A stretch of DNA of 15,256 nucleotides from a virus, in UHGV virus genome UHGV-0159580, one strand, 5' to 3'. Below the pieces are notes generated by a model. That model was given only the letters and a program-made list of their open reading frames with translations. It had not been told where the DNA came from and did no database searches. Positions 2,526-15,256 of this stretch are shown one piece after another. The translations under genes and the position numbers were made by a program. Every line of letters begins with the position of its first letter. Positions within the stretch are counted from its first letter, which is position 1.

Positions 2526-2563
2526 ATTGTTTTATCATATATGAATATATTGTACAACACAAA

Positions 2564-2577
2564 GTGCATACTTGCAC
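2564..2577. promoter_or_regulatory. Inverted repeat GTGCA-N4-TGCAC in a non-coding gap (candidate operator or promoter-associated site)
   Basis: gtgcaTACTtgcac at 2564..2577. The same half-site arrangement recurs at the centre of the 32-bp palindrome at 14622..14653. Confidence 0.25.
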
Positions 2578-2626
2578 GTTGTGTTGCTAAAAATGTCACC
2601 ATTGTACAACATGTATTGAGCTTTTG

Positions 2627-2663
2627 CACACAAAACAAGCAGACTGCAATTGCAGCCTGCTTG
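2627..2663 (-). terminator. Rho-independent terminator candidate for the minus-strand transcript downstream of CDS 2713..3258
   Basis: On the minus strand, CAAGCAGGCTGC-AATT-GCAGTCTGCTTG forms a 12-bp stem (one G-U pair) with a 4-nt loop, immediately followed by UUUUGUGUG. It lies in the 187-bp gap 2526..2712. Confidence 0.5.
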
Positions 2664-5282: not shown

Positions 5283-5651
5283 TTATTGCATATTGTCGAC
5301 AATCAGCTGTTCAAGTGCAGTAGCTGACAATGCGCCAGTTGCACGGCCAACTTCAATGCAATCACGAAAGACAATTGTCGTTGGTACTGAACGAACATTG
5401 TGAGTGCTATCAAGCTCATCGCACTCTTCAACATTCACTTCAGCAAATGTCACTTTGCCATTGAATTTCTTTTCAGTTGACTCGAAAATTGGCGCATAAC
5501 CTTGACAAGGCACACACCATGGCGCACTGAACTTCACTACAACGAGTGGATTGTTTGCAAGTGCTCGAGCCATTTCGGCTTTATGTTTGAGTTGCAGCAT
5601 ATCTTTTTTTATGTTTGTTGTTGACAATATATGTATATTTGCATTACGCAT
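5283..5651 (-). CDS. Thioredoxin (thioredoxin fold with a CVPC active site)
   Basis: FSAPWCVPCQGYAPIFE matches the thioredoxin WCGPC region with Gly replaced by Val. The C-terminal VRSVPTTIVFRDCIEVGRATGALSATALEQLI matches the thioredoxin cis-Pro and Gly region (E. coli GIRGIPTLLLFKNGEV...GALSK). The start at 5651 overlaps the upstream gene by 8 nt; an internal ATG at 5600 is possible. Confidence 0.85.
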   Translation of the reverse strand: MRNANIHILSTTNIKKDMLQLKHKAEMARALANNPLVVVKFSAPWCVPCQGYAPIFESTEKKFNGKVTFAEVNVEECDELDSTHNVRSVPTTIVFRDCIEVGRATGALSATALEQLIVDNMQ

Positions 5652-6099
5652 CGTCTTCTACAGCAAGAACAGCTTCAAGCAATCTTGAAGTGCCTTTGCT
5701 AATGCTCTTATCTTTGACGTTGGTGAGCTTTTTAAGGTCATACTGCATGATGCGCTCAAGCTTCTTTGCATGCTTGACTATGTCAGCATCTTTAGCACGC
5801 AATGCTTTTGCAATTTGTGCAGCAAAGATGCGCTTGTAAATGTCAAGTTCTACGAAATCTGCTGCTTTGATGCCCTGTTCTTTGTACAACTCAGTCAACG
5901 CTAAACCAAACTGATTTGATGCTCTGTCAAAATCAACTTTTGTTGCGGGCTGTTGTGTTGCATTTGCTGCAGCTTGAATTCGCTTTGTTACAAGCAAATA
6001 CGTGTCAAACACGCCTTTGAGGTATCGCTGCTCTACTACAGGCCGCAGCATTTCTTTGACTTCAGTAGAATTGAACGGTTGCATATTGTTTGTTAGCAT
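5644..6099 (-). CDS. Hypothetical protein
   Basis: 151-aa ORF with ATG start and protein-like composition. Confidence 0.7.
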   Translation of the reverse strand: MLTNNMQPFNSTEVKEMLRPVVEQRYLKGVFDTYLLVTKRIQAAANATQQPATKVDFDRASNQFGLALTELYKEQGIKAADFVELDIYKRIFAAQIAKALRAKDADIVKHAKKLERIMQYDLKKLTNVKDKSISKGTSRLLEAVLAVEDDA

Positions 6100-6117
6100 T
6101 TATATTGATAATGTACA

Positions 6118-7713
6118 TCAAAGCTTGAATTTTTGCACTTTTGCATCTACTGGCATCTTTTCAGCGTCATAGATTCGTTTTCGAGCAGCAAAGTGTTGCA
6201 TGTCATAATTGCAGTAGCAATAGCCTTTGCGAAGCTTGACAAGCATATCACTGTGAATTGTAAGCTTATGTGCAATATCAATAATGATTGCTTTCTGCTT
6301 AAGTGGATGCTTACGCAACAGTCGACCAATTGACTGTAATGTTACGTTGTCAGATTTGCCAATCATTAAGAACGCAGCGTAAAACCAAGCATGCACAGAT
6401 ACACCTGTAGACAAAGTACCAGTAGTTGCAATCATGATATGTCTGTCAGGCTCTGCTTCCATCATTGCAAGCATATCTTTGCGTTCATGCAAGGGTACAT
6501 CACCTCTAATGATGTGAACAACCTTGTCAACACCAGACTGCTGTATGAATGTTTGGCAAGCATCATAGATGTTCTGCACATGGTCTCGTCGTTTGCAAAG
6601 TACAAGAGCATTTTTGTCAAGCGAACAAATGATTTTTGCAATGAGCTTGTTAGCATCGACGTAGTTCATGCAATGATGTTGTTCTGCTGGAAGCAGTCTT
6701 GCAGTGTTATCAAACACTTCAGGATGCTCTTCAAGATACTGCACAAATGGCGCATCGTATTCTGCTGAATGCTCAATGACTACTCGTTTGATTTCAAAGT
6801 CAGACACGATGTTCTTTTCGAGTGCTTGAGCTACACCAAATGTACCCAATATTGGCCCAATGTACGATTCAATTGTCAAACGAGCTGCAGTATGTTCAAG
6901 CGGCAATGAACCAGACACACCAAGACGATAATGAGCCTTTGTGCAATGACTGAAGATTTCACGAATTGATGCTGCAGGTGCACCATGAGCTTCATCAGTC
7001 ACAATAAAGTCAAACTGTTCGAAAAAATCTGCTGGCATATTGACAAGACTTTGATATGTGCCGACAACCATATCTGCATCTTGCATTTTGTACTCATTGC
7101 GAACGCCTGAATGGATTTTGTAGAGCTTGTAGTTCTTGTTTGCTAAATCTGACTCATTTTGTTGATAGCTGACAACAATATCGTCAAATGCTTGTGATAC
7201 AAGATGCACCGAGGGTACAATCATAAGCGTTTTGCCATTGATTCTCTTGCTATCTTTTAAGAAGCGACTAATTACATAAACAAGAGCTGTTTTGCCATAA
7301 GACGTCGCAAGGCGCAAACAGCATTTCTTGAATTTGCAAGCAGTCAAAATGAATTTGAGCTGGTCGTCACGCATGTCAAATGGCATGTCAAGACATTCTG
7401 CCCATTGCTCAAGTTCTTCAAGCGATACAATGCGGTCAAAATTGTCAATGAGACCCTCAATCTTGACTTCATATGGAATTGGCTTACGCAATTGTAGGTC
7501 CCAAATACGCTTCCATAAGCCAAATGGCAAGTACACGCCATTAAACACATAGCAAATTTGCCCATTCCAATCTGCTTTGCGACCTTTACGCTTATTGACT
7601 GCTGCTGCAACAAAGTTTGGCACTTCTGCAGTAGCTTCAGCATACAATTGCTTGACTTCCAAATCATTTGCTTCGACAATCTGAAGCAAATCACCTATGA
7701 CTTTGAGTCTCAT
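6118..7713 (-). CDS. Superfamily 2 DNA/RNA helicase (DEAD/DEAH-box type; UvsW-like role possible)
   Basis: Helicase motifs are present in canonical order: Walker A LATSYGKTAL, motif II VTDEAH, motif III GVSGSL, motif V IATTGTLSTGVSV and motif VI QSIGRLLR. An N-terminal domain of about 130 aa is unassigned. Confidence 0.85.
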   Translation of the reverse strand: MRLKVIGDLLQIVEANDLEVKQLYAEATAEVPNFVAAAVNKRKGRKADWNGQICYVFNGVYLPFGLWKRIWDLQLRKPIPYEVKIEGLIDNFDRIVSLEELEQWAECLDMPFDMRDDQLKFILTACKFKKCCLRLATSYGKTALVYVISRFLKDSKRINGKTLMIVPSVHLVSQAFDDIVVSYQQNESDLANKNYKLYKIHSGVRNEYKMQDADMVVGTYQSLVNMPADFFEQFDFIVTDEAHGAPAASIREIFSHCTKAHYRLGVSGSLPLEHTAARLTIESYIGPILGTFGVAQALEKNIVSDFEIKRVVIEHSAEYDAPFVQYLEEHPEVFDNTARLLPAEQHHCMNYVDANKLIAKIICSLDKNALVLCKRRDHVQNIYDACQTFIQQSGVDKVVHIIRGDVPLHERKDMLAMMEAEPDRHIMIATTGTLSTGVSVHAWFYAAFLMIGKSDNVTLQSIGRLLRKHPLKQKAIIIDIAHKLTIHSDMLVKLRKGYCYCNYDMQHFAARKRIYDAEKMPVDAKVQKFKL

Positions 7714-7720
7714 GACATGA

Positions 7721-7768
7721 CTTGTTAAATGAAAAGAGGCTCAGACAAACAATGTCTGTCTGAGCCTC
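7721..7768 (-). terminator. Hairpin plus U-tract (terminator or attenuator candidate) between the SSB-like gene and the helicase gene
   Basis: Perfect 12-bp stem gaggctcagaca (7736..7747) with tgtctgagcctc (7757..7768) and a 9-nt loop. On the minus strand it is followed by UUUUCAUUU (plus 7727..7735). Confidence 0.45.
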
Positions 7769-7790
7769 GAGCATCTTTGATGCACTTGTG

Positions 7791-8921
7791 CTACTTGAGC
7801 CCGTTGATGAATGCTTCAGTTTCAGCATCCATCGTTGCTGCTGCAGGTGCTGCTGCCGGAGCTGCTGCAGGTGCAGGCTCTGCTGCAGGCGCTGAAGCTG
7901 CTGCAAACGGGTCAATAGCTGTCTGAGCTGCTGGTGCAGTAGCAGGCGCAGCTGCCGGAGCTGCTGCAGGTGCAGGCTGAGTAGTCTGTGCCTGCTGAGT
8001 TGCTGACGGATTGATGACAATGTCAGGCCAGATGTCCGACACATCCTTGTAGTTAGCAAGGCGCATCTTAACCTGACGCTTGATGTCATCAGAAGCTTCG
8101 TGGTAGCCCCACTCCTTTTCGACATTCGGGTACTCCTTGAGCATGTCGACAATCTGCTGCATGATTTGCTGCTTGTATGCAGGGTCAGTGTCATACTTCG
8201 CCTGGTCAACAAGCGTGCCATCTGCAAGCAGCATCGACGATACGTTGGGCGAAATCGTCGAAGTCTCGTAGTCACGCATTTCAACACCATTGACGTCTTT
8301 CAGCGTAATCTTCAAGAGAATGTCGTGGCCCTTAACGGGATGGAACATGTCCATAGGCTGAGCGCCCATCTGGATGTCTTCGTCGGTCGGCTTCATTGCA
8401 GACATGCAACGCTTGTAGATGGCTGCGGGTAACCTGTATGGTAACACGCGACCAACGTTCTCAGTGTGCACTGAATCAGCCTTGATTTGCACGAGGCAAG
8501 TGTACTGACTCTGCATGCTGAACTCTCGCTTTGCAAGTGCTTCCTGCTGAGCATCCTTGGTATTGATGAGATCCCAGTAAAAATTTGATACTGGGCACCA
8601 ACCATAGGGTTTCATCAAATTTTCAGGATTTTCAGGATGCGGATTCGGCGAGCTCGGCGAATTGTAGCGGAAGCCCTGATTAGCGCCAGTCCCAAACCAG
8701 TAATAGCGGATGATTGAAATCGGCACAGCAGGGTCGTTCAAGTTCGGCAGAATTCGAATGACTGCTCGATAGATTCGGTCCTTACTTTCGGAAGGCTTAG
8801 GATTGAAGAACTCGGGTCCTGCAGAACGTTCCGGCTTAGCAAAGCTTGCTACATTGTCCGGCTGGACATCAAAGATTGACAGCGGCCGATTGCCATTCTG
8901 TCCATTTTCAATTTGTGACAT
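7791..8921 (-). CDS. Putative ssDNA-binding protein, T4 gp32-like, with a Pro/Ala-rich linker and a short C-terminal tail
   Basis: 376-aa ORF with ATG start. RAVIRILPNLNDPAVP resembles the gp32 segment I recall as QAVIRFLPSKNDEQAPF, and VGRVLPYRLPAAIYKRCMSAM resembles gp32 [20 protein letters not shown]. Both comparisons are from memory, not a search. A PAPAAAPAAAPA low-complexity linker precedes the tail ...TMDAETEAFINGLK. Confidence 0.55.
   Translation of the reverse strand: MSQIENGQNGNRPLSIFDVQPDNVASFAKPERSAGPEFFNPKPSESKDRIYRAVIRILPNLNDPAVPISIIRYYWFGTGANQGFRYNSPSSPNPHPENPENLMKPYGWCPVSNFYWDLINTKDAQQEALAKREFSMQSQYTCLVQIKADSVHTENVGRVLPYRLPAAIYKRCMSAMKPTDEDIQMGAQPMDMFHPVKGHDILLKITLKDVNGVEMRDYETSTISPNVSSMLLADGTLVDQAKYDTDPAYKQQIMQQIVDMLKEYPNVEKEWGYHEASDDIKRQVKMRLANYKDVSDIWPDIVINPSATQQAQTTQPAPAAAPAAAPATAPAAQTAIDPFAAASAPAAEPAPAAAPAAAPAAATMDAETEAFINGLK
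7800..7990. repeat. GC-rich simple-sequence region (GCTGCNGGN-type) encoding the Pro/Ala-rich linker, with a duplicated block of about 30 bp
   Basis: gctgccggagctgctgcaggtgcaggct occurs at about 7850 and again at about 7942. The surrounding sequence is a near-periodic gctgc(a/c)gg repeat. Confidence 0.7.
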
Positions 8922-9037
8922 CGCAATAAAATTTTAGAAAGTTTAACAAAAAGTTTGAAATAGACTCTTAAGAAAATCTTCAGAAGTTTATTTGTTTTGT
9001 ATATGTATATGATACAACATGCGAATATCATTTGCAC

Positions 9038-10291
9038 TTATCTTGCATGGCCACAGTCATAAACTGCAACATAACCTGCATCAATCATCTCTTGCTCATT
9101 TTGTCCGCAGTCTTCAATATGCTCTTTTGTTTTGAGATGACACCAGTGTTTGCGAATTGTCGACCTGTCATCTGACAGATGTGGCTTAAGTGCGAAGTCA
9201 GTTGAATCTACAGGTTCACCTGCAAGATGCTTTCTAATGACGTCAATGACTTCATTGTCATCCATCCATTCGAATATTGTAATGCAAGTGTAGCCATGCT
9301 TGAGAGCAAGCTGAGTTTTGTCGAAGTGATATTGCGTGCCAGTCGGCCAATTGTCTTTTGATTTGCCAACAATATAAATGTATGACAATGTTGAATTATG
9401 CGTAATTGTTGGATTGACTTCAATCAATAACTTACAACAATCATTGACATAGCTAAGGTCATATGAACGATTTTCAATGTTAACTGCATCAAAATCACAC
9501 GCAATTCCAAGTTCTTGCAATAATTTGTCATGCCACCATTTATTTGCTTTTGATATGACTTTGCCTTGTGCTGTACGACATTTAGTAGTCATACAATGCC
9601 AAGGCACACCATAACGTTGCATACATGTTTCTGATACTTTACTCATATTGCCGCATCCATTGCCGTATCGCTCACGCTTTATTGCAACGCATTTAGCAAT
9701 GTCACCAAACCCATTACCATATCGCTCACGCTTTGTCGCAATTGATTTAGCAATGTTGCCTGGTCCCGCATTGCCATATCGCTCACGCTTTGTCGCATGA
9801 ATTTTGTCAATAGGCCCAATTGCATTGCCATATTTAGCAATCTTTGCAGCAACAGTCTTTTGCATAGTTTCAGCACTGCATACACCATTATCATAGCGTT
9901 CAAGCTTTGTTGCTACTGCTTTCTGCGGATTACCTGAACGTGCGCCATAGCGTGCAATATTTGTTGCTTCACATTTTTCTTTTGGCCCAAATGTGTTGCC
10001 ATACAGTAGCTTCTTTGTGGCTTGCTGACGTTCAAGAGGTCCTTGTGCATAACCATAGCGCTCAATATTTGTTTGCTTACTTTTATCAATGACTGATTGC
10101 ACAAGTCTACAACTTTCTACACCATATTTGCGTAAGCACCCAATTTTTGTGCCATATCGATTCTTAATTTTGCCGTGTACAGTGACATTTCTGCTCAACC
10201 GAATGTTCTCAGTTGTTCTCAACAACTCATCTCGCTCTTGCTCAAGTTCTGCAATTCGTTTCTCAAGAGCTTCACCAGTTAGTGGTGTCAT
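9038..10291 (-). CDS. Repeat-containing protein: N-terminal coiled coil, about 9-10 tandem repeats of about 21 aa with an (K/E)RYG(N) core, and a C-terminal Vsr/DUF559-like PD-(D/E)xK endonuclease-like domain (homing-endonuclease-like)
   Basis: 417-aa ORF with ATG start and an ATGA overlap with the upstream gene. Repeats include IATKRERYGNAGPGNIAKS, IATKRERYGNGFGDIAKCV and AIKRERYGNGCGNM. The C-terminus LLIEVNPTITHNS...HFDKTQLALKHGYTCITIFEW follows the Vsr/DUF559 pattern (IEvDG..H...D..R...L...GW.vlRf). The domain assignment is by motif only. Confidence 0.45.
   Translation of the reverse strand: MTPLTGEALEKRIAELEQERDELLRTTENIRLSRNVTVHGKIKNRYGTKIGCLRKYGVESCRLVQSVIDKSKQTNIERYGYAQGPLERQQATKKLLYGNTFGPKEKCEATNIARYGARSGNPQKAVATKLERYDNGVCSAETMQKTVAAKIAKYGNAIGPIDKIHATKRERYGNAGPGNIAKSIATKRERYGNGFGDIAKCVAIKRERYGNGCGNMSKVSETCMQRYGVPWHCMTTKCRTAQGKVISKANKWWHDKLLQELGIACDFDAVNIENRSYDLSYVNDCCKLLIEVNPTITHNSTLSYIYIVGKSKDNWPTGTQYHFDKTQLALKHGYTCITIFEWMDDNEVIDVIRKHLAGEPVDSTDFALKPHLSDDRSTIRKHWCHLKTKEHIEDCGQNEQEMIDAGYVAVYDCGHAR
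9657..9835. repeat. Tandem direct repeats of about 57-60 bp, at least three well-conserved copies, inside CDS 9038..10291
   Basis: attgccRtatcgctcacgcttt(a/g)t(t/c)gca... recurs at about 9657, 9713 and 9771, with degenerate copies continuing toward 10180. These encode the (K/E)RYG protein repeats. Confidence 0.8.
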
Positions 10292-11028
10292 TTCACTTCA
10301 GGTTTTGCTTGCTTGGCCAACTCAGCTTCAGCATTGAACTCTTTGCCCTCAGCTTTCATTGTTTCGGCATAAGTCTTTTCATCAGTATAGCGTTCTACAT
10401 CATCGCCAAGTAATTTTGCGACTTCATCATCTGCTTCAAACAATGGCTGTGGATTGTCATCGTTGTCATCTTTGAGTTGCTCAAATGTGCTGTTATGCTT
10501 TTCTGCAATTTTGATGAGGTCGACGATTGAACGAGTTACGAGTTCACCATTGATGCCTGACTGCTGTTCAGATTGACCAGAGCCTTGTTGCAATTCTGCT
10601 TGGGTTGCTCGAACATTATTGTTGAGTGACGCAAGTACATTGGGAAGCGTTCGACAATATGATATATATTGCTGAACCAACGACATTGCGTCATTCTGTA
10701 GTTTGATGAGAAACGCAAACTCACCCATGCCTCCGCCTTGTGCATCAATGCGCTCGAACACTGAATCAAGTGCATGCATTGCATAGAACACTTGTTTGCA
10801 AAGCAAATTGATGTTTGTCTTCTCCATCTCAATTGATGCATCAATAAACGGTGACTTGACATCAGCTGCTATGCACAATTTGCGAACTTCGTCAACGTAT
10901 TTTGAACACTTGTCAAGTGTTTTGTCAAGTTTGCTTCGGTCAAACTGCTTGTAAACTTCTAACGCATCGCTTACTTCTGCAGCATCCAATATTGCATTTG
11001 CTGCAGCCAATTCTGATTCTCTGCTCAT
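10288..11028 (-). CDS. Hypothetical protein with an acidic C-terminal region
   Basis: 246-aa ORF with ATG start. The overlapping 10536..10862 ORF is in another frame and less protein-like. Confidence 0.7.
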   Translation of the reverse strand: MSRESELAAANAILDAAEVSDALEVYKQFDRSKLDKTLDKCSKYVDEVRKLCIAADVKSPFIDASIEMEKTNINLLCKQVFYAMHALDSVFERIDAQGGGMGEFAFLIKLQNDAMSLVQQYISYCRTLPNVLASLNNNVRATQAELQQGSGQSEQQSGINGELVTRSIVDLIKIAEKHNSTFEQLKDDNDDNPQPLFEADDEVAKLLGDDVERYTDEKTYAETMKAEGKEFNAEAELAKQAKPEVK

Positions 11029-11049
11029 CTGCCAATAGTGTAAATATCG

Positions 11050-11664
11050 CTAGCGCAATATAGTCCAAGCTTCAATAATTGCTGAAAAATCTTCAAAGGG
11101 CATTGTAGTGTAGCCGGAATCACCCCAAGATACACCCCAGCTATTCTTAATGATGAATGAGTCTTTTGTGTAGCCGACAATTGACACTGCATGCCCACCA
11201 AAATTGCCATCGCCTTTCCAAAAATGCTCAGCATCAATGTCTTTTACGAGCATGCCAACAAAGACAGGCCCATTTGCTACAACAGCAGATTTGATTTCAT
11301 CAATTGTGTAGCAACGTCTGTATGCAGTTATTGGCAATTGCTCTGAGCCCTTTGACATCTTGATTGGCTGTGCTTTGAGCAGCTTAAAGACATCACGTGG
11401 AATCATGCCCTCTTGAGGTGCATTTGAACGACGCTCATACAATGCTTTGATGTCAAGCTTGCCTTGCATAGACAGCACAGAAGACCACCAGTCAATCATT
11501 GTTGCTGCTGTGTAAGCTGCACACATTGATGTACTGCCTTGGTCTTCTACTTGAAGTTGAGCCAACTTGTACACAAGTGGCAAATCTGTTTTTGCGTCAA
11601 AACGCAAGTCTCTGTCATCTTGAGGCGACTGGATGTAGCCCAGTCCATATGTCGTTTGTTTCAT
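11050..11664 (-). CDS. Papain-family (C1) cysteine peptidase, without propeptide or signal peptide
   Basis: All three catalytic-region signatures of C1A peptidases are present with papain-like spacing: VEDQGSTSMCAAYTA (oxyanion Gln six residues before the catalytic Cys, as papain Q19/C25), GGHAVSIVGY (catalytic His; papain DHAVAAVGY) and IKNSWGVSWGDSGY (catalytic Asn; papain IKNSWGTGWGENGY). Confidence 0.85.
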   Translation of the reverse strand: MKQTTYGLGYIQSPQDDRDLRFDAKTDLPLVYKLAQLQVEDQGSTSMCAAYTAATMIDWWSSVLSMQGKLDIKALYERRSNAPQEGMIPRDVFKLLKAQPIKMSKGSEQLPITAYRRCYTIDEIKSAVVANGPVFVGMLVKDIDAEHFWKGDGNFGGHAVSIVGYTKDSFIIKNSWGVSWGDSGYTTMPFEDFSAIIEAWTILR

Positions 11665-11679
11665 ATCAGATAATGTATC

Positions 11680-11976
11680 TCATTGTTCATGCCAGTGTCC
11701 TGTCAAGTCAAACATTGCTTCACGTTGTGCCTTTGTGCATTTTGCAATGTCGTCAATAATCCAACACGGAGTGCTTCCCCAGTTGCAATATCGAATATAG
11801 CCTAATTGCTCAAGTTCTGCAATTGGGTCATATGCAAGACTAACTGGCATATTGTACGCGTCAAACAGCTCTGGTTTGAGCTTTTGCAACAAAGTGTCAG
11901 CAGTTTTGCTATGTTCAGCAAAGCCGCAATATGTGACTTGGCCTGATGGGCTTAACCAGCAAGATTGCATTGTCAT
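11680..11976 (-). CDS. Hypothetical small protein
   Basis: 98-aa ORF with ATG start and an ATGA overlap with the upstream lipoprotein-like gene. Confidence 0.6.
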   Translation of the reverse strand: MTMQSCWLSPSGQVTYCGFAEHSKTADTLLQKLKPELFDAYNMPVSLAYDPIAELEQLGYIRYCNWGSTPCWIIDDIAKCTKAQREAMFDLTGHWHEQ

Positions 11977-12335
11977 TCATTTGGTTGAGGCTCAATTCGC
12001 ATCACTACACGCACAGAATCTCTATAAGGATAAACTGACGCAACAATCAAATACCAACGTTTGTCGTCAACTTCGCCATTTGACTTGATGTATGGCGCAG
12101 AAGTAGCAATATATCGAGCATGTTTGAATGTCGTATCTACTCTTGCAACAAGACAGGTAGAATCAGTCGCTTGAGCATGCCACACATCAATTTCAGGCAA
12201 ATGTGTATTGTGTGCGTTGCATACACTGTCAACAAATTCTCGTGGTTGCAAAGTGACAGTCGACACATATGTTGGTTTAACTGCAGCACATGCAATACAT
12301 GCAATTGCAATGAACAACAATGTAAATCGTTTCAT
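11973..12335 (-). CDS. Putative secreted protein or lipoprotein (N-terminal signal peptide with Cys-containing lipobox-like segment)
   Basis: MKRFTLLFIAIACIACAAV has a positively charged N-terminus, a hydrophobic core and IAC/IAC cysteines at positions 13 and 16. 120 aa, ATG start. Confidence 0.65.
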   Translation of the reverse strand: MKRFTLLFIAIACIACAAVKPTYVSTVTLQPREFVDSVCNAHNTHLPEIDVWHAQATDSTCLVARVDTTFKHARYIATSAPYIKSNGEVDDKRWYLIVASVYPYRDSVRVVMRIEPQPNE

Positions 12336-12339
12336 ATTC

Positions 12340-12600
12340 TTAGACGTTTTGTAGTTCTACAATATCATATCGCTTATGCAATTCAGACCAGTCACGAACG
12401 TAGCCTGTCATAAAGACGTGCAACATGTATGGTTTGTTGTCAGCATACTTGACTGCGCCTGCAGCATCTTTGATTTGCTTGGCTGTTAGCCAAACTTCTG
12501 CATTGTTGTTTGCATATACACAACGATACACCGGTTCTGATAATTCAGTCACTGTGATTTTCTTGCCATTGCGAAGTATGCATCGTACTTGTTTGTCCAT
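12340..12600 (-). CDS. Hypothetical small protein, paralog of CDS 12924..13208
   Basis: The ORF-track start at 12609 is TTG; the first ATG is at 12600 (MDKQVRCILRNGKKITVTELSEPVYRC...HVFMTGYVRDWSELHKRY). It aligns with the 12924..13208 product (NG..I.ITEL..PV..C...LHV...GYVR.W.EL). Confidence 0.65.
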   Translation of the reverse strand: MDKQVRCILRNGKKITVTELSEPVYRCVYANNNAEVWLTAKQIKDAAGAVKYADNKPYMLHVFMTGYVRDWSELHKRYDIVELQNV

Positions 12601-12630
12601 TGCTTGCAATTTATGATATTGTTAAGATAT

Positions 12631-12927
12631 CTACAAAAAGCAATGCACCATAAAACCCAAGAACATAATTATTGCAGGCTGCATGATGCAATACATAAAG
12701 AACTGTGCAGCAATTGGCAATTCACTGAACTTGTTGACTGTGTCATGATTCTTGAACAATGCCAGTACAAATGATATCCCAATTGCATGCTTAAGTGATA
12801 ACGCAGTCAATGCGGGCCACACGGGCATTACAAACCACTCCCAGAAGTTCATAATAATGCAGCCATTCAGAATGTAGCCTAACAGCATGAACACAATGCA
12901 TGCAACAGTTATCAGAAAGTTTTTCAT
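12631..12927 (-). CDS. Small integral membrane protein (about 3 predicted TM helices)
   Basis: 98 aa with ATG start. Three hydrophobic stretches: FLITVACIVFMLLGYILNGCIIM, VWPALTALSLKHAIGISFVLALF and FFMYCIMQPAIIMFLGFMVHCFL. ATGA overlap with the upstream paralog gene. Confidence 0.7.
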   Translation of the reverse strand: MKNFLITVACIVFMLLGYILNGCIIMNFWEWFVMPVWPALTALSLKHAIGISFVLALFKNHDTVNKFSELPIAAQFFMYCIMQPAIIMFLGFMVHCFL

Positions 12928-13208
12928 ATACGCTCAAGTTTTATGATGTCAGTTCTTAATGATTTGTATGCGGCAAATAATTCAGTCCAGCCTCGTACAT
13001 AACCAACGCCAATTACATGCAATGCATGCGCATCTGGTTTTGCATGACAATGTCTTGCATGAGGCTGCTGTTCAAGTTCTGCTTGTGTAAGATAGGCCTT
13101 TGATGAGTCATCATGCACAAAACATGGAAATACTGGCTGTGCAAGTTCTGTTATGTCAATGTCTTGACCATTAGATAGCTTTGCAAGATATAATGTATTG
13201 GCTTGCAT
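12924..13208 (-). CDS. Hypothetical small protein, paralog of CDS 12340..12600
   Basis: 94 aa with ATG start (MQANTLYLAKLSNGQDIDITELAQPVFPC...HVIGVGYVRGWTELFAAYK). Shares conserved blocks with the 12340..12600 product. Confidence 0.65.
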   Translation of the reverse strand: MQANTLYLAKLSNGQDIDITELAQPVFPCFVHDDSSKAYLTQAELEQQPHARHCHAKPDAHALHVIGVGYVRGWTELFAAYKSLRTDIIKLERI

Positions 13209-13345
13209 GTTACATTGAGATGTTAAGAATTCGCTTGACTACAGAATCGATATCATTGTTTGCTACATTGCACAGTTCCATGCGAACATTAGAATCAATG
13301 AACAAGTCATGAAACGTTGACGCAGCTTGAACAACTTATTTGAGC

Positions 13346-13636
13346 TCATATTCGTGTAAGTTTGATGACACAATGCCGACAAGCTGCAAAAGTACTCAAT
13401 ATTGTTTCTACTTTGACACTGTACTGCACGTCAATAATGCGATATGCGCCACACAATGTCGACATTTCTTGACGACGTTCTGCAGGAACATTAACACTGT
13501 CTGTCAAATTGATGATTGCGCCAATTTGCATAGATGACATGACTGCAAATTGTTCTGGACCTACTTCTGCTTTGCGATATGCGACTTGTTTGTTGTTTTC
13601 GCAAATGCTGAATGCTACTATATAATTTGGTGTCAT
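13346..13636 (-). CDS. Hypothetical protein
   Basis: 96-aa ORF with ATG start. The overlapping 13491..13775 ORF is in another frame and judged spurious. Confidence 0.55.
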   Translation of the reverse strand: MTPNYIVAFSICENNKQVAYRKAEVGPEQFAVMSSMQIGAIINLTDSVNVPAERRQEMSTLCGAYRIIDVQYSVKVETILSTFAACRHCVIKLTRI

Positions 13637-13653
13637 GATGACTGTGTGTTAAT

Positions 13654-14136
13654 TTATTCGTTATCGTCAGTATCGCATCCCATGCAATCTTCAAGAGTTG
13701 CAAAATCATCGTCAAAGTCATCGAATTCAGGCTCTTTATTACACCACTTGTATGGCGGATTGTTGAGCAATTCATGCTCTATTGCATTTGACTGTGCAGA
13801 AAGTGGAACATATTCGAACGCTTTGACTGACATGTCAAATTTGATGCAATGCAGCCACGGAAACATATCAGTGTCCTCATTCACAATTGGCTGACGAACG
13901 TAGTCTTTCATTGCAATGAACTTGCTGCGGGCGTCCCAGTCTTTTATAGGAATTTCAAATTGCGATATGGTCGTATGACAATCGTCAAAGAAATTGCAGG
14001 ATACACCTACAATAACATGAGAGTCTGTACGTTTGCGTTCTATTGCAAGAAAGTCATGTTTCTTAGAAAGACGAACTTCTCCATGTTTCTCTAAGAAGAT
14101 TTTAAGAAGCTCTTTGTTAATGTCGTTGATGTTCAT
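13654..14136 (-). CDS. Hypothetical protein with an acidic, Cys-containing C-terminus
   Basis: 160-aa ORF with ATG start. The C-terminus is ...EFDDFDDDFATLEDCMGCDTDDNE; CNFFDDCH and CMGC cysteine pairs are present. The 14 nt upstream of the ATG are near-identical to those upstream of the next gene. Confidence 0.65.
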   Translation of the reverse strand: MNINDINKELLKIFLEKHGEVRLSKKHDFLAIERKRTDSHVIVGVSCNFFDDCHTTISQFEIPIKDWDARSKFIAMKDYVRQPIVNEDTDMFPWLHCIKFDMSVKAFEYVPLSAQSNAIEHELLNNPPYKWCNKEPEFDDFDDDFATLEDCMGCDTDDNE

Positions 14137-14158
14137 TGTTGTAGAGATTTTGTGATGT

Positions 14159-14473
14159 TTAATACTGAGTTTTTGCAGATATAGCTACTTTAATTGCTGC
14201 TTTAATTTGTTCGATTGCATCTTGTGAGAACAATTCTGGCACTGCTAAATAGTGATACCATGATGTTGGCGCTGCCTGCATATCAGTTCGTTTAACTGCG
14301 AACCGAAGTTCTTTTGGCGAACCAAGGCAACCCATGTATTGACAGCTTGTTAACTTAACTTGTGCATTGTTAATGCTGCTATGAATATCAAGATGAGACA
14401 GATTTATTCTGTCATAGAATTTTAGATGCTTTAGTTGTTTTTCAATTGCTTTGAATGCGTTTGTATTATTCAT
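14159..14473 (-). CDS. Hypothetical protein
   Basis: The ORF-track start at 14506 is a TTG lying inside a TGCAATA repeat; the first ATG is at 14473 (MNNTNAFKAIEKQLKHL...). The leader AAACCTCTACAACA-ATG is shared with CDS 13654..14136 (AAATCTCTACAACA-ATG). Confidence 0.6.
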   Translation of the reverse strand: MNNTNAFKAIEKQLKHLKFYDRINLSHLDIHSSINNAQVKLTSCQYMGCLGSPKELRFAVKRTDMQAAPTSWYHYLAVPELFSQDAIEQIKAAIKVAISAKTQY

Positions 14474-14501
14474 TGTTGTAGAGGTTTGTATACTATATTG
14501 A

Positions 14502-14522
14502 TGCAATATGCAATATGCAATA
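14502..14522. repeat. Three tandem copies of the heptamer TGCAATA, 29-49 nt upstream of the ATG of CDS 14159..14473
   Basis: tgcaata-tgcaata-tgcaata, read directly from the sequence. Confidence 0.8.
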
Positions 14523-14621
14523 TATTAAAATATATTGATATATGATAATTGTACTACAAAAATCCCAAATTTGCACACTTTGATAATCAAAAGTGCAAAC
14601 AAAATTCAAAGTTATATTGTA

Positions 14622-14653
14622 CATCATAAAGTGCAAATTTGCACTTTATGATG
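14622..14653. promoter_or_regulatory. Perfect 32-bp palindrome (candidate operator for a dimeric DNA-binding protein, or hairpin)
   Basis: catcataaagtgcaaatttgcactttatgatg is its own reverse complement; the core is GTGCA-N4-TGCAC. Related half-sites occur at 14568 (TTTGCACAC) and 14591 (AAAGTGCAAA) in the same gap. Confidence 0.55.
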
Positions 14654-14667
14654 CTGCAAAATGTCTG

Positions 14668-14700
14668 CATAAAATAAGCAGCTTAGCAATCTAAGCTGCT
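14668..14700 (-). terminator. Rho-independent terminator candidate downstream of minus-strand CDS 14725..15240
   Basis: Perfect 10-bp stem agcagcttag/ctaagctgct with a 4-nt loop at 14677..14700, followed on the minus strand by UAUUUUAUG (plus 14668..14676). Confidence 0.55.
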
Positions 14701-14724
14701 GTCATTGCGTATATGCAGTCACTG

Positions 14725-15240
14725 TCATTTGTAGTGTTCAGTTATGTATGCAGAGCATAGCAATACAACTGATATGCAAATGACAATGTATGTTGGCGTA
14801 ATCAGTGTTACATTGAATAACAATGCAGTCAATGCGCATACTGTTACTGATATGAGTGTTGAAATGAATGCAGCATATGCACTAAATTTGCTTTTGAACA
14901 AACGTTCAATGACATATGTTGTCGCAACAGACAGTAAGACTACATATGCAAATAACAACAGCCAAGTTGAGTTTGACGTTGTTGGCTCTTCAATAAACTG
15001 CAATGTTGCTGATGGCACTTCAATGTTATTTGATGCTTGCAAAGTGCCGCTTACTGCATCTGCATACATCACAGTTAAGTAGTGTCGTTGAATTTCTGCT
15101 GCGTCTACTTTATAGATTCTATGCCATGCAACATCTGATATGATGTATGTTGCAGCCATAAATACAGCAATGCATAGCATATAAGAGCCAAACTTTGCAA
15201 TCGGTTTCATGCAAATATATTTTTGTTTGTATATGTACAT
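14725..15240 (-). CDS. Integral membrane protein (about 4 predicted TM helices), function unknown
   Basis: 171-aa ORF from ATG at 15240; an alternative ATG at 15210 gives MKPIAKFGSYMLCIAVFMAATYII... Hydrophobic segments include LCIAVFMAATYIISDVAW, WLLLFAYVVLLSVATTYVI, AAFISTLISVTVCALTALLF and IVICISVVLLCSAYI. Confidence 0.7.
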   Translation of the reverse strand: MYIYKQKYICMKPIAKFGSYMLCIAVFMAATYIISDVAWHRIYKVDAAEIQRHYLTVMYADAVSGTLQASNNIEVPSATLQFIEEPTTSNSTWLLLFAYVVLLSVATTYVIERLFKSKFSAYAAFISTLISVTVCALTALLFNVTLITPTYIVICISVVLLCSAYITEHYK

Positions 15241-15256
15241 AAAAGAGCAAGTTCTC

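What the first reader, a model, noticed from the sequence alone, without database searches (positions are those of the whole stretch)
13654..14506. Two adjacent genes share a near-identical 14-nt leader immediately upstream of the ATG
AAATCTCTACAACA-ATG (gene 13654..14136) and AAACCTCTACAACA-ATG (gene 14159..14473) differ at one position, and both products begin MN... This suggests either a local duplication that created two divergent small genes or a shared translation-initiation or regulatory element specific to this accessory block.
Basis: seen in the sequence. Interest (0 to 1): 0.4.

Follow-up and report, generated by a model that had tools for sequence, protein, structure and literature searches.

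The report
Shared phage gene leader, reused cassette
The identical 14 bases in front of two neighbouring phage genes are real: they are a reusable "start here" module placed in front of several unrelated small genes in this uncultured T4-like phage, which is an ordinary kind of phage genome modularity rather than a new mechanism.

Summary
On the minus strand, AAATCTCTACAACA|ATG (14137-14150) and AAACCTCTACAACA|ATG (14474-14487) precede a 160-aa and a 104-aa ORFan. Chance gives about 1e-6 per gene pair.

The two proteins show no detectable homology (BLASTP E=1.1, hhalign probability 0.2%). The structure test was unusable because the g2 model had pLDDT 39.

In related contigs the core AAAYCTCTACA heads at least six unrelated ORFs. 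These include loci 104-114 kb from this block in two ~175-kb IMG/VR genomes. Every relaxed match followed by ATG opens an ORF of at least 76 aa. In 18 unrelated phage loci such matches are random.

For gene 1 the leader is the 3' end of a repeated intergenic cassette. The cassette holds a promoter-like box, GTGCAA-N12-TGWWGTA. The window has 6 exact copies, all intergenic and all on the coding strand, against 0.33 expected.

Gene gain or loss and contig break-points fall at the leader or cassette, as with T4 PeSL cassettes.

The leader has no G, is unstructured, and has A at -3, -6 and -12 to -14. None of 87 gene starts has a Shine-Dalgarno core, so it fits a Bacteroidia-type SD-less initiation region.

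Verdict: a recombining leader/initiation module, a new variant of a known kind, of modest interest.

The parts
13654..14136 (-). g2: 160-aa ORFan with a very acidic C-terminal tail (EPEFDDFDDDFATLEDCMGCDTDDNE)
   Evidence: ORF and translation. No Pfam, PHROG or PADLOC hit. Only 2 clusters in 5.8 billion proteins. AF2 pLDDT 39.
14137..14153 (-). g2 leader ACAAAATCTCTACAACA. The finding's 14-mer is 14137-14150. It sits in the 22-nt g1-g2 spacer and has no promoter-like box upstream.
   Evidence: Across 8 haplotypes positions -3 (A/G/T), -5 (C/T) and -8 (C/A) vary. Among the six aligned haplotypes, variability is 2/14 against 0.22 at g2 third codon positions. Unpaired in the RNA fold.
14159..14473 (-). 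g1: 104-aa ORFan, the first gene after the intergenic cassette
14474..14489 (-). g1 leader ACAAACCTCTACAACA. The finding's 14-mer is 14474-14487.
   Evidence: CCTCTACAACAATG is invariant in 10 haplotypes, including some whose protein is only ~60% identical. Variability is 1/14 against 0.44 at g1 third codon positions.
14495..14531 (-). Variable spacer between the promoter-like block and the leader. It is a ~37-nt insertion present in the window, L001 and L003, flanked by the direct repeat CAATATA. It contains TATTGCA x3 (TRF 14501-14523, period 7).
   Evidence: Alignment of 8 upstream regions. TRF. L221 has 2 repeat units.
14531..14576 (-). Promoter-like cassette core GTGCAAATTTGGGATTTTTGTAGTACAATTATCATATATCAATATA. 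The box GTGCAA-N12-TGWWGTA is at 14552-14576.
   Evidence: Six exact boxes in the window against 0.33 expected, with 0 of 200 shuffles reaching 6. About 13 in 52 kb of contig 149023, all upstream of genes in coding orientation. Zero in 18 unrelated phage loci. Only chance-level scatter in 185,579 bacterial genomes.
14620..14649 (-). Second box copy (14620-14644) overlapping the perfect palindrome ATAAAGTGCAAATTTGCACTTTAT (14626-14649). This could be an operator or a stem-loop.
   Evidence: The same element is at site A of the 175-kb genomes.
14677..14700 (-). Intrinsic-terminator-like hairpin plus T-run that closes the upstream gene
   Evidence: 10-bp stem, 5 GC pairs, tail TATTTTATGC.
14725..15240 (-). 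Upstream 161/171-aa hydrophobic protein gene. In the 175-kb genomes it lies next to a different cassette copy (site A), not next to g1.
2553..2629 (-). Two further promoter-like boxes (2553-2577, 2605-2629), preceded by a terminator-like hairpin and a GTGCA...TGCAC inverted repeat, upstream of the 462-aa gene. The cassette architecture is the same but the leader differs (GATAAAACAAT|ATG).
6114..6138 (-). Promoter-like box upstream of the 151-aa gene (5644-6099)
9013..9037 (-). Promoter-like box upstream of the gp32-like SSB gene (7791-8921)

Best explanation
The 14-mer is the ribosome-loading end of a modular 5' leader (ACAAA-Y-CTCTACA-N1-3-ATG). An uncultured ~175-kb T4-like phage lineage places this leader in front of several unrelated small ORFan genes. 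For g1 it is the 3' end of a repeated intergenic cassette with this order: terminator or palindrome, promoter-like box GTGCAAA-N11-TGTWGTAcaAT, AT-rich block, variable spacer, leader, ATG. g2 carries only the leader part. The near-identity reflects common descent: the leader was copied when gene modules were inserted, deleted or exchanged by recombination at these cassettes. It does not reflect gene duplication. Functionally it most likely serves as a Shine-Dalgarno-independent translation-initiation region: G-free, unstructured, with A at -3, -6 and -12 to -14. That is the pattern that enhances initiation on Bacteroidia ribosomes. Shown here: the motif's existence, its non-randomness, its exclusive association with gene starts, its presence before at least six unrelated ORFs, its linkage to the repeated cassette, indel and break-points at the leader or cassette, and the absence of SD cores. 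Inferred: the translational role, the promoter activity of the box, a Bacteroidota host, and the direction of the events.
For: Gene-start association. Relaxed motif plus ATG hits in the lineage all open ORFs of 76-239 aa: g1, g2, geneX (239 aa), the L001 110-aa gene, p76 and p84. In ~350 kb of unrelated phage loci the same pattern hits only random places.

Register. CTCTACA lies at -10..-4 in 4 of 6 families and is shifted by 1-2 nt in the other two. The distance to the promoter-like box varies from 40 to 151 nt because of tandem-repeat spacers. The motif is therefore tied to the ATG and not to the box.

Cassette. The same ~45-nt block lies at two sites 112-114 kb apart in both 175-kb genomes. 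The box is strongly over-represented and strictly intergenic and co-oriented with genes.

Shuffling. Contig 149023 has the p76 gene lying exactly inside the leader that in 152288 directly heads p84, with 96% identical flanks. A related cassette heads an unrelated 110-aa gene in L001. Homology between the window and L001/L003 breaks at the box, at 14576.

Initiation-region fit. Zero of 87 gene starts have an SD 4-mer. A is enriched at -14..-12. A PWM built from 64 other genes ranks the motif leaders 2, 5, 6, 10 and 16 of 69. Fold energies equal those of shuffles and the motif is unpaired. Baez et al. 2019 (PMC6847099) show that A-3, A-6, A-12 and A-13 are positive determinants in an SD-less Bacteroidia species.

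Conservation. The g1 leader has 1/14 variable sites against 0.44 at third codon positions.
Against: The pyrimidine core CTCT is not explained by the published A-rich rule. The g2 copy drifts at -3, -5 and -8 at about the synonymous rate, so selection on its exact sequence is weak or absent. Only ~30% (52 kb) of one genome was surveyed. No transcription or translation data exist. The host is not identified; the only pointers are the nearest helicase relatives, which infect Bacteroidota, a faint BACON hit and the lack of SD cores. Conservation of the g1 leader could partly reflect recent recombination, because the first 33 coding nt are also invariant.
Confidence: 0.55

Rival explanations
1. The CUCUACA leader is a sequence-specific operator. 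A phage-encoded translational repressor or activator (T4 RegA-like), an endoribonuclease (T4 RegB-like) or an antisense RNA would recognise it. That would define a co-regulated set of ORFan genes.
For: The core is identical in unrelated genes and more specific than the general A-rich rule. It overlaps the initiation region, as T4 RegA operators do (own knowledge). The g1 copy is invariant in 10 haplotypes.
Against: The g2 copy tolerates changes at -3, -5 and -8, including inside the core (CTATACA, CTCTATA). The register to the ATG shifts by 1-2 nt in geneX and p84. No RNA-binding regulator was identified in the sequence surveyed, and there is no Rfam hit.
Confidence: 0.15
2. The motif is part of a transcription start or initiator of a phage promoter, so each copy, including g2's, marks its own transcript start.
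For: Five of the six motif genes follow a promoter-like box. ACAAAC recurs about 7-25 nt downstream of the box at several other genes.
Against: g2 has no box within g1. The box-to-motif distance varies from 40 to 151 nt while the motif-to-ATG distance is nearly fixed. Most box-bearing genes lack the CTCTACA core.
Confidence: 0.15
3. A tandem gene duplication produced g1 and g2. The proteins diverged beyond recognition and only the leader and first codons stayed alike.
For: Both begin MN-N. Predicted secondary structure starts alike: a helix at 3-17/18, then three strands at about 30-63. The global N-terminal alignment is slightly above shuffles (p~0.02). True paralogue pairs do exist nearby: 12340-12609 and 12924-13208 are 35% identical.
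Against: BLASTP E=1.1. hhalign probability 0.2%. The g2 model is unreliable (pLDDT 39). The same leader heads four other unrelated ORFs elsewhere, so gene duplication is not needed to explain it.
Confidence: 0.07
4. The match is a neutral recombination scar or a chance resemblance with no function.
For: The g2 copy evolves at about the synonymous rate.
Against: Chance is excluded (1e-6 per pair; 6-mer enrichment p=1.5e-6). The g1 copy is far less variable than third codon positions. The motif is retained at six gene starts in near-fixed register.
Confidence: 0.08

Closest known systems
PeSL (promoter-early stem-loop) regulatory cassettes of T4-type phages (Arbiol et al. 2010, PMC2839356; Comeau et al. 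2014, PMC4122927)
   Same: These are short composite intergenic cassettes (stem-loop or terminator, promoter, ribosome-binding sequence, start codon) repeated through the genome. They lie mostly in front of ORFans in plastic regions. Insertions, deletions and replacements between close relatives have their break-points in the cassette.
   Different: There is no sigma-70 consensus here; the box is GTGCAAA-N11-TGTWGTAcaAT. There is no Shine-Dalgarno; the 3' end is an A-rich, G-free leader with a CTCTACA core. Stem-loops lie upstream of the box and are not interleaved with it. Promoter and terminator activity and mini-circles are untested. The copy number per genome is unknown: about 13 boxes and 4 CTCTACA leaders in 52 kb.
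SD-independent, 'Kozak-like' translation-initiation regions of Bacteroidia (Baez et al. 2019, PMC6847099; Jha et al. 2021, PMC7797042)
   Same: There is no SD (0 of 87 genes). A is enriched at -14..-11. The motif has A at -3, -6, -12 and -13. G content is low and the region is unstructured.
   Different: The published rule is degenerate. Here an exact 11-14-nt word including a CUCU pyrimidine block is reused, which the rule does not predict. The host phylum is inferred, not shown.
T4 RegA translational operators and RegB cleavage sites in early mRNA leaders (own knowledge, not tested here)
   Same: These are short shared sequences that overlap the initiation regions of several early phage genes.
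   Different: No RegA or RegB homologue was found in the surveyed sequence. The g2 copy tolerates core changes. The sequence is unrelated to the known RegA (AU-rich) and RegB (GGAG) targets.

Membership tests
PeSL-type mobile regulatory cassette (T4-type phages) | Repeated intergenic motif located preferentially in front of ORFans | tested here: met
   The box is exact 6 times in the window and ~13 times in 52 kb of contig 149023. All copies are intergenic and co-oriented with genes. The CTCTACA leader stands in front of six ORFs without Pfam or PHROG hits.
PeSL-type mobile regulatory cassette (T4-type phages) | Sigma-70 consensus early promoter (-35 TTGACA / -10 TATAAT) | tested here: not met
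   The sigma-70 scan of 13600-14800 found 6 sites against 5.4 expected. The conserved box is GTGCAA-N17-TACAAT at best. The transcription machinery and the host are unknown.
PeSL-type mobile regulatory cassette (T4-type phages) | Stem-loop or terminator component within the cassette | tested here: inconclusive
   A terminator (14677-14700) and a 24-nt palindrome (14626-14649) stand upstream of the box. The cassette at 2553-2700 has the same layout. They are adjacent to the promoter rather than interleaved with it. The native site B flank was not analysed for hairpins.
PeSL-type mobile regulatory cassette (T4-type phages) | Shine-Dalgarno sequence plus start codon at the 3' end | tested here: not met
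   Zero of 87 gene starts have GGAG, GAGG, AGGA or AAGG in -22..-5. An A-rich, G-free leader takes that position.
PeSL-type mobile regulatory cassette (T4-type phages) | Indels and replacements between close relatives have break-points in the cassette | tested here: met
   The p76 gene is present or absent exactly within the leader between contigs 149023 and 152288. A related cassette heads a different ORF in L001. The window/L001 homology break lies at the box.
PeSL-type mobile regulatory cassette (T4-type phages) | Demonstrated promoter and terminator activity | not testable with these tools
   This needs reporter assays or transcript mapping.
Bacteroidia-type SD-less translation-initiation region | Absence of SD with A enrichment at -14..-11 | tested here: met
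Bacteroidia-type SD-less translation-initiation region | A at -3, -6, -12 and -13 in efficiently translated genes | tested here: met
   g1 and g2 have A at -1, -3, -4, -6, -12, -13 and -14 (rule from PMC6847099). geneX and p84 keep only the -14..-10 A-run.
Bacteroidia-type SD-less translation-initiation region | Little secondary structure around the start | tested here: met
   MFE is -1.6 to -6.1 kcal/mol with z-scores of 0.27-0.47 against shuffles, and the motif is unpaired.
Bacteroidia-type SD-less translation-initiation region | Host belongs to Bacteroidota | tested here: inconclusive
   The nearest helicase relatives are Lak-type megaphages and Chryseobacterium and Tenacibaculum phages at ~30% identity. 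There is a faint BACON hit. The bacterial genome scan gave only chance hits.
Paralogous gene pair from tandem duplication | Detectable sequence or profile similarity of the products | tested here: not met
   BLASTP E=1.1. hhalign probability 0.2%.
Paralogous gene pair from tandem duplication | Shared fold | tested here: inconclusive
   The g1 model has pLDDT 85.7 in one of five models. The g2 model has pLDDT 39. No pairwise structure comparison was possible.

The most novel reading that the evidence does not exclude
The exact CUCUACA-type leader is a sequence-specific signal and not just an A-rich open initiation region. It could be a recognition site for a phage factor, or for a ribosomal element of an SD-blind host. 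It would mark a set of ORFan (host-takeover?) genes for co-ordinated, SD-independent translation. Such a signal would be a phage-specific substitute for the Shine-Dalgarno interaction in Bacteroidota-type hosts.
Probability: 0.12. Interest if true: 0.55.

Novelty: new variant of a known kind. Interest (0 to 1): 0.28.

Why it matters
The result gives a concrete, testable regulatory grammar for an uncultured ~175-kb T4-like gut or environmental phage lineage: the box GTGCAAA-N11-TGTWGTAcaAT plus the leader ACAAAYCTCTACA. That helps with gene-start and operon annotation. It also shows that cassette-mediated module shuffling, described for SD-using coliphages, operates in a phage whose genes lack SD sequences. 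Finally, it flags that such repeats can create chimeric metagenome contigs. It does not reveal a new mechanism.

Tried and rejected
**Searches that found nothing useful**
- Megablast of the whole window against GenBank phages gave no match.
- IMG/VR scan for AYCTCTACAACAATG gave more than 120 single random hits and was uninformative.
- IMG/VR scan for ACAAACCTCTACANNNATG gave one hit per related genome, and the other 10 hits were random non-starts. The extended exact word is therefore not a pervasive repeat.
- Bacterial genome scan for the box gave 30 single hits scattered over phyla, about the number I estimated for chance (my own estimate, not a tool result). None is related to the phage, so there is no host clue.
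- Rfam (gathering) and tRNA scans of the window found nothing.

**Ideas tested and dropped**
- TTGTAG as a -35-like word is too common to mean anything.
- Pairing of an upstream TTGTAG with CTACAA in the leader is not supported by folding.
- Pfam, PHROGs and PADLOC on g1, g2, geneX and the 110-aa protein gave no hits.
- P0002, a 98-aa protein sharing the g2 C-terminus, carries a signal-peptide-like N-terminus on a 669-nt contig at 2.2x coverage. I treated it as a probable assembly chimera.

**Calls that failed**
- The fourth fold used wrong coordinates and is ignored.

Full report
**What the window is.** The window is an ENA metagenome contig (NODE_2236, ERZ507895). It is 41% G+C and essentially all its genes are on the minus strand. 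It encodes a T4-like replication and nucleotide-metabolism set: a gp32-like SSB, a UvsW-type helicase, dCMP deaminase, thioredoxin and a C1 peptidase. The remaining genes are many small ORFs without family hits. The closest GenBank phages share only ~30% identity in the helicase. They are Lak-type megaphages and Chryseobacterium and Tenacibaculum phages. Megablast against GenBank phages found nothing. Two IMG/VR contigs of 175.6 and 174.6 kb carry the same genes at ~90% amino-acid identity: IMGVR_UViG_3300045988_149023 and _152288. Several short ENA and Logan contigs carry further haplotypes.

**Check of the observation.** The two 14-mers are exactly as described, on the minus strand.
- 14137-14150 reads AAATCTCTACAACA in front of the ATG of the 160-aa ORF 13654-14136 (g2).
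- 14474-14487 reads AAACCTCTACAACA in front of the ATG of the 104-aa ORF 14159-14473 (g1).
- CTCTACAACAATG occurs only at these two places in the window.
- Using position-specific base frequencies from 64 other gene starts of this phage, 13 or more matches out of 14 in register have probability 1e-6 per pair and 3e-4 over all pairs.
- An unbiased 6-mer count in -25..-1 of 67 gene starts puts CTCTAC second (5 observed, 0.19 expected, p=1.5e-6). AAACCT, ACAAAC and ACAACA are also enriched.

**Are the two genes paralogues?** The sequence evidence says no.
- BLASTP gives E=1.1. Profile-profile comparison gives 0.2% probability.
- A global alignment of the first 75 residues is only marginally better than shuffles (p~0.02).
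- Both proteins are ORFans with only 2 and 4 clusters in 5.8 billion proteins.
- AlphaFold gave one confident model out of five for g1 (pLDDT 85.7; layout alpha, four beta strands, two alpha helices). It gave an unusable model for g2 (pLDDT 39).

**The leader occurs in front of other, unrelated genes.** I used a relaxed pattern, AA[ACT][CT]CTCTA[CT]A with at most one mismatch followed by ATG within 0-6 nt. Every hit in the lineage opens a real ORF.

| Gene | Length | Leader and start |
|---|---|---|
| g1 | 104 aa | AAACCTCTACA-ACA-ATG |
| g2 | 160 aa | AAATCTCTACA-ACA-ATG |
| 110-aa gene, only in contig L001 | 110 aa | AAACCTCTACA-GCT-ATG |
| p76, genome 149023 | 76 aa | AAACCTCTACA-TCT-ATG |
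| geneX, both 175-kb genomes and L220 | 239 aa | AAATCTCTACA-T-ATG |
| p84, genome 152288 | 84 aa | AAACCTCTGCA-AT-ATG |

None of the four leader-headed proteins scanned (g1, g2, geneX and the 110-aa protein) has a family hit; p76 and p84 were not scanned. As a control I ran the same pattern on 18 loci (~350 kb) of unrelated or very distant phages. There it hits only random places: ORFs of 2-22 codons or gene interiors. The motif is therefore lineage-specific and gene-start-specific. It is also not confined to this accessory block. In genome 149023, geneX lies 114 kb and p76 about 104 kb from g1.

**The g1 copy is the end of a larger repeated cassette.** Alignment of eight g1 upstream regions shows a conserved layout: GTGCAAATTT, 7 nt, TTTGTAGTACAATTATCATATATCAATATA, a variable spacer, then GTATACAAACCTCTACAACA-ATG. 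The spacer is 0 nt in most haplotypes and ~37 nt, with TATTGCA repeats, in the window, L001 and L003.

An IMG/VR scan for the central block found a second copy in each 175-kb genome, which I call site A (L177, L193). It heads geneX. Its spacer contains one to five 16-nt tandem repeats.

Generalising the 5' part gave a bipartite box, GTGCAA-N12-TG[AT][AT]GTA.
- It occurs six times exactly in the window: 2553, 2605, 6114, 9013, 14552 and 14620. All copies are on the minus strand and all are intergenic.
- The expectation is 0.33, and 0 of 200 shuffles reached six.
- It occurs about 13 times in 52 kb of genome 149023, always upstream of a gene in coding orientation.
- It is absent from the 18 control loci.
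- In 185,579 bacterial genomes it is found only at chance level, and no hit is related to the phage.

Upstream of the box at site A, which is the flank the window carries, lie a terminator (14677-14700) and a perfect 24-nt palindrome (14626-14649). The cassette in front of the 462-aa gene (2526-2712) has the same order of parts but a different leader. Box and leader are therefore separable modules. Most box-bearing genes lack CTCTACA. g2 has CTCTACA without a box.

**Is the motif tied to the ATG or to the promoter-like box?** The distance from the box to the motif ranges from 40 to 151 nt because of the repeat-containing spacers. The distance from the motif to the ATG is 3 nt in four families and 1-2 nt in the other two. 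That argues for a role at the initiation codon rather than at the transcription start.

**Fit to a Shine-Dalgarno-independent initiation region.**
- None of 87 gene starts in the lineage has an SD 4-mer in -22..-5. G is depleted and A peaks at -14..-12 (0.44-0.54).
- The g1 and g2 leaders have A at -1, -3, -4, -6, -12, -13 and -14 and no G.
- Baez et al. 2019 showed by ribosome profiling and reporters that A-3, A-6, A-12 and A-13 stimulate initiation in the SD-less Bacteroidia species Flavobacterium johnsoniae (PMC6847099).
- A weight matrix built from the 64 other gene starts ranks the motif leaders 2nd, 5th, 6th, 10th and 16th of 69. They are close to this phage's own optimum.
- The leaders are predicted to be unstructured, with MFE of -1.6 to -6.1 kcal/mol, no different from shuffles.
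- The CUCU block itself is not explained by the published rule.

**Evidence that the identity comes from module shuffling.**
- Genomes 149023 and 152288 are 96% identical on both sides of the p76/p84 locus. 152288 reads AAACCTCT|GCAAT-ATG-p84. 149023 reads AAACCTCT|ACATCT-ATG-p76-TAA-AAAGCATTC|GCAAT-ATG-p84. A whole gene is therefore gained or lost exactly inside the leader.
- A closely related cassette in L001 heads the unrelated 110-aa gene in another genomic context.
- The window is 99.9% identical to L001 from 6924 to 14576, and the homology stops at the box.
- Beyond that point the window matches the upstream flank of site A (92.8% to L177) and not the flank of the g1 site. The window contig thus joins two cassette copies that are 114 kb apart in the complete genomes. 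This is either a genuine recombinant or an assembly chimera across a ~34-nt exact repeat at 5.4x coverage.
- The layout promoter-leader-g1-leader-g2 is what insertion of a module with duplication of the leader would give.

This behaviour matches the PeSL cassettes of T4-type coliphages, which consist of terminator, early promoter, SD and start codon. There are about 50 per genome, they stand in front of ORFans, and they mediate indels (PMC2839356; PMC4122927). Two PeSL features are not met here: the sigma-70 consensus and the SD.

**Constraint.** Among six aligned haplotypes the g1 leader has 1 variable site in 14, against 0.44 at g1 third codon positions. CCTCTACAACAATG is invariant in ten haplotypes. 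The first 33 coding nucleotides are equally invariant, so recent recombination may contribute. The g2 leader varies at -3 (A/G/T), -5 (C/T) and -8 (C/A). That is 2/14 among the six aligned haplotypes, about the same rate as synonymous sites. This speaks against a strict sequence-specific operator at g2. It is compatible with a tolerant initiation region or a slowly decaying copy.

**Verdict.** The best-supported reading (confidence ~0.55) is a reusable leader and initiation module. It belongs to a lineage-specific family of regulatory cassettes, it was copied by recombination, and it works as an SD-independent initiation region. The rivals are:
- a specific post-transcriptional operator (0.15);
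- a transcription-start element (0.15);
- a non-functional scar (0.08);
- ancient gene duplication (0.07).

This is a new variant of a known kind, namely PeSL-like modularity in an SD-less phage. It is useful for annotation but not surprising to a specialist. Interest is about 0.28.

Noticed in passing
window 14531-15256: This end of the contig holds the 171-aa hydrophobic protein gene, a terminator, a palindrome and the box. It matches the flank of a different cassette copy (site A, L177, 92.8% identity) that lies 114 kb from g1 in the 175-kb genomes. L001 and L003 keep the native flank. The contig is either a real recombinant between cassette copies or an assembly chimera across a ~34-nt repeat (coverage 5.4x).
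   Followed up: partly
window 12340-12609 and 12924-13208 (minus strand): The 89-aa and 94-aa products are paralogues (34-35% identity by tblastn). Genuine local gene duplication therefore does occur in this accessory block.
   Followed up: no
window 14626-14649; also 14571-14600: There is a perfect 24-nt palindrome, ATAAAGTGCAAATTTGCACTTTAT, and a second imperfect inverted repeat (TTTGCACTTTTGAT/ATCAAAGTGTGCAAA). Both are built from the GTGCAAA half-site of the promoter-like box. They look like operator sites for a dimeric DNA-binding protein.
   Followed up: no
L127:9541-9593 vs L127:6460-6514 (also L001:5173-5279): A 55-110-nt element upstream of the g1 cassette recurs in inverted orientation ~3 kb away. 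It brackets a segment that holds two opposite-strand genes. A related copy lies upstream of the p76 cassette in genome 149023. It may be a second class of repeated intergenic module.
   Followed up: partly
L177 (site A spacer; L177 minus strand ~5690-5775) vs L193 and L220: The 16-nt unit GATATAGAATGCAATT is present about 5 times in genome 149023 and 1-2 times in 152288 and L220. The window's g1 spacer has TATTGCA x3 (14501-14523) and L221 has x2. The 5' UTR spacers are hot-spots of tandem-repeat copy-number change.
   Followed up: partly
window 13654-13740 (C-terminus of g2): g2 ends in a strongly acidic tail, EPEFDDFDDDFATLEDCMGCDTDDNE, which is conserved in all homologues. It is reminiscent of the protein-interaction tails of SSBs or of DNA-mimic proteins. 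Its function is unknown.
   Followed up: no
window 7836-7977 (inside the gp32-like gene 7791-8921): There are GC-rich tandem repeats (periods 6, 12, 18 and 30) near the 3' end of the SSB gene, encoding an Ala/Pro-rich low-complexity linker. The ORF pattern differs in L128, so the repeat is probably length-variable.
   Followed up: no
window 9657-9797 (inside gene 9038-10291): There is a 54-nt tandem repeat of 2.5 copies at 81% match inside the 417-aa DUF7487-like gene. This product is only 56% identical to its counterpart in genome 149023, while its neighbours are 93-100% identical.
   Followed up: no
L197 (ENA NODE_60545, 669 nt): A 98-aa ORF (P0002) fuses a signal-peptide-like N-terminus to the last ~50 residues of g2. 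The contig has 2.2x coverage, so it is probably an assembly chimera.
   Followed up: partly
contig 149023, merged locus L201+L198 position ~5790-6020: p76, the gene inserted within the leader, has CxxC...CPCC spacing typical of a small zinc-ribbon protein.
   Followed up: no
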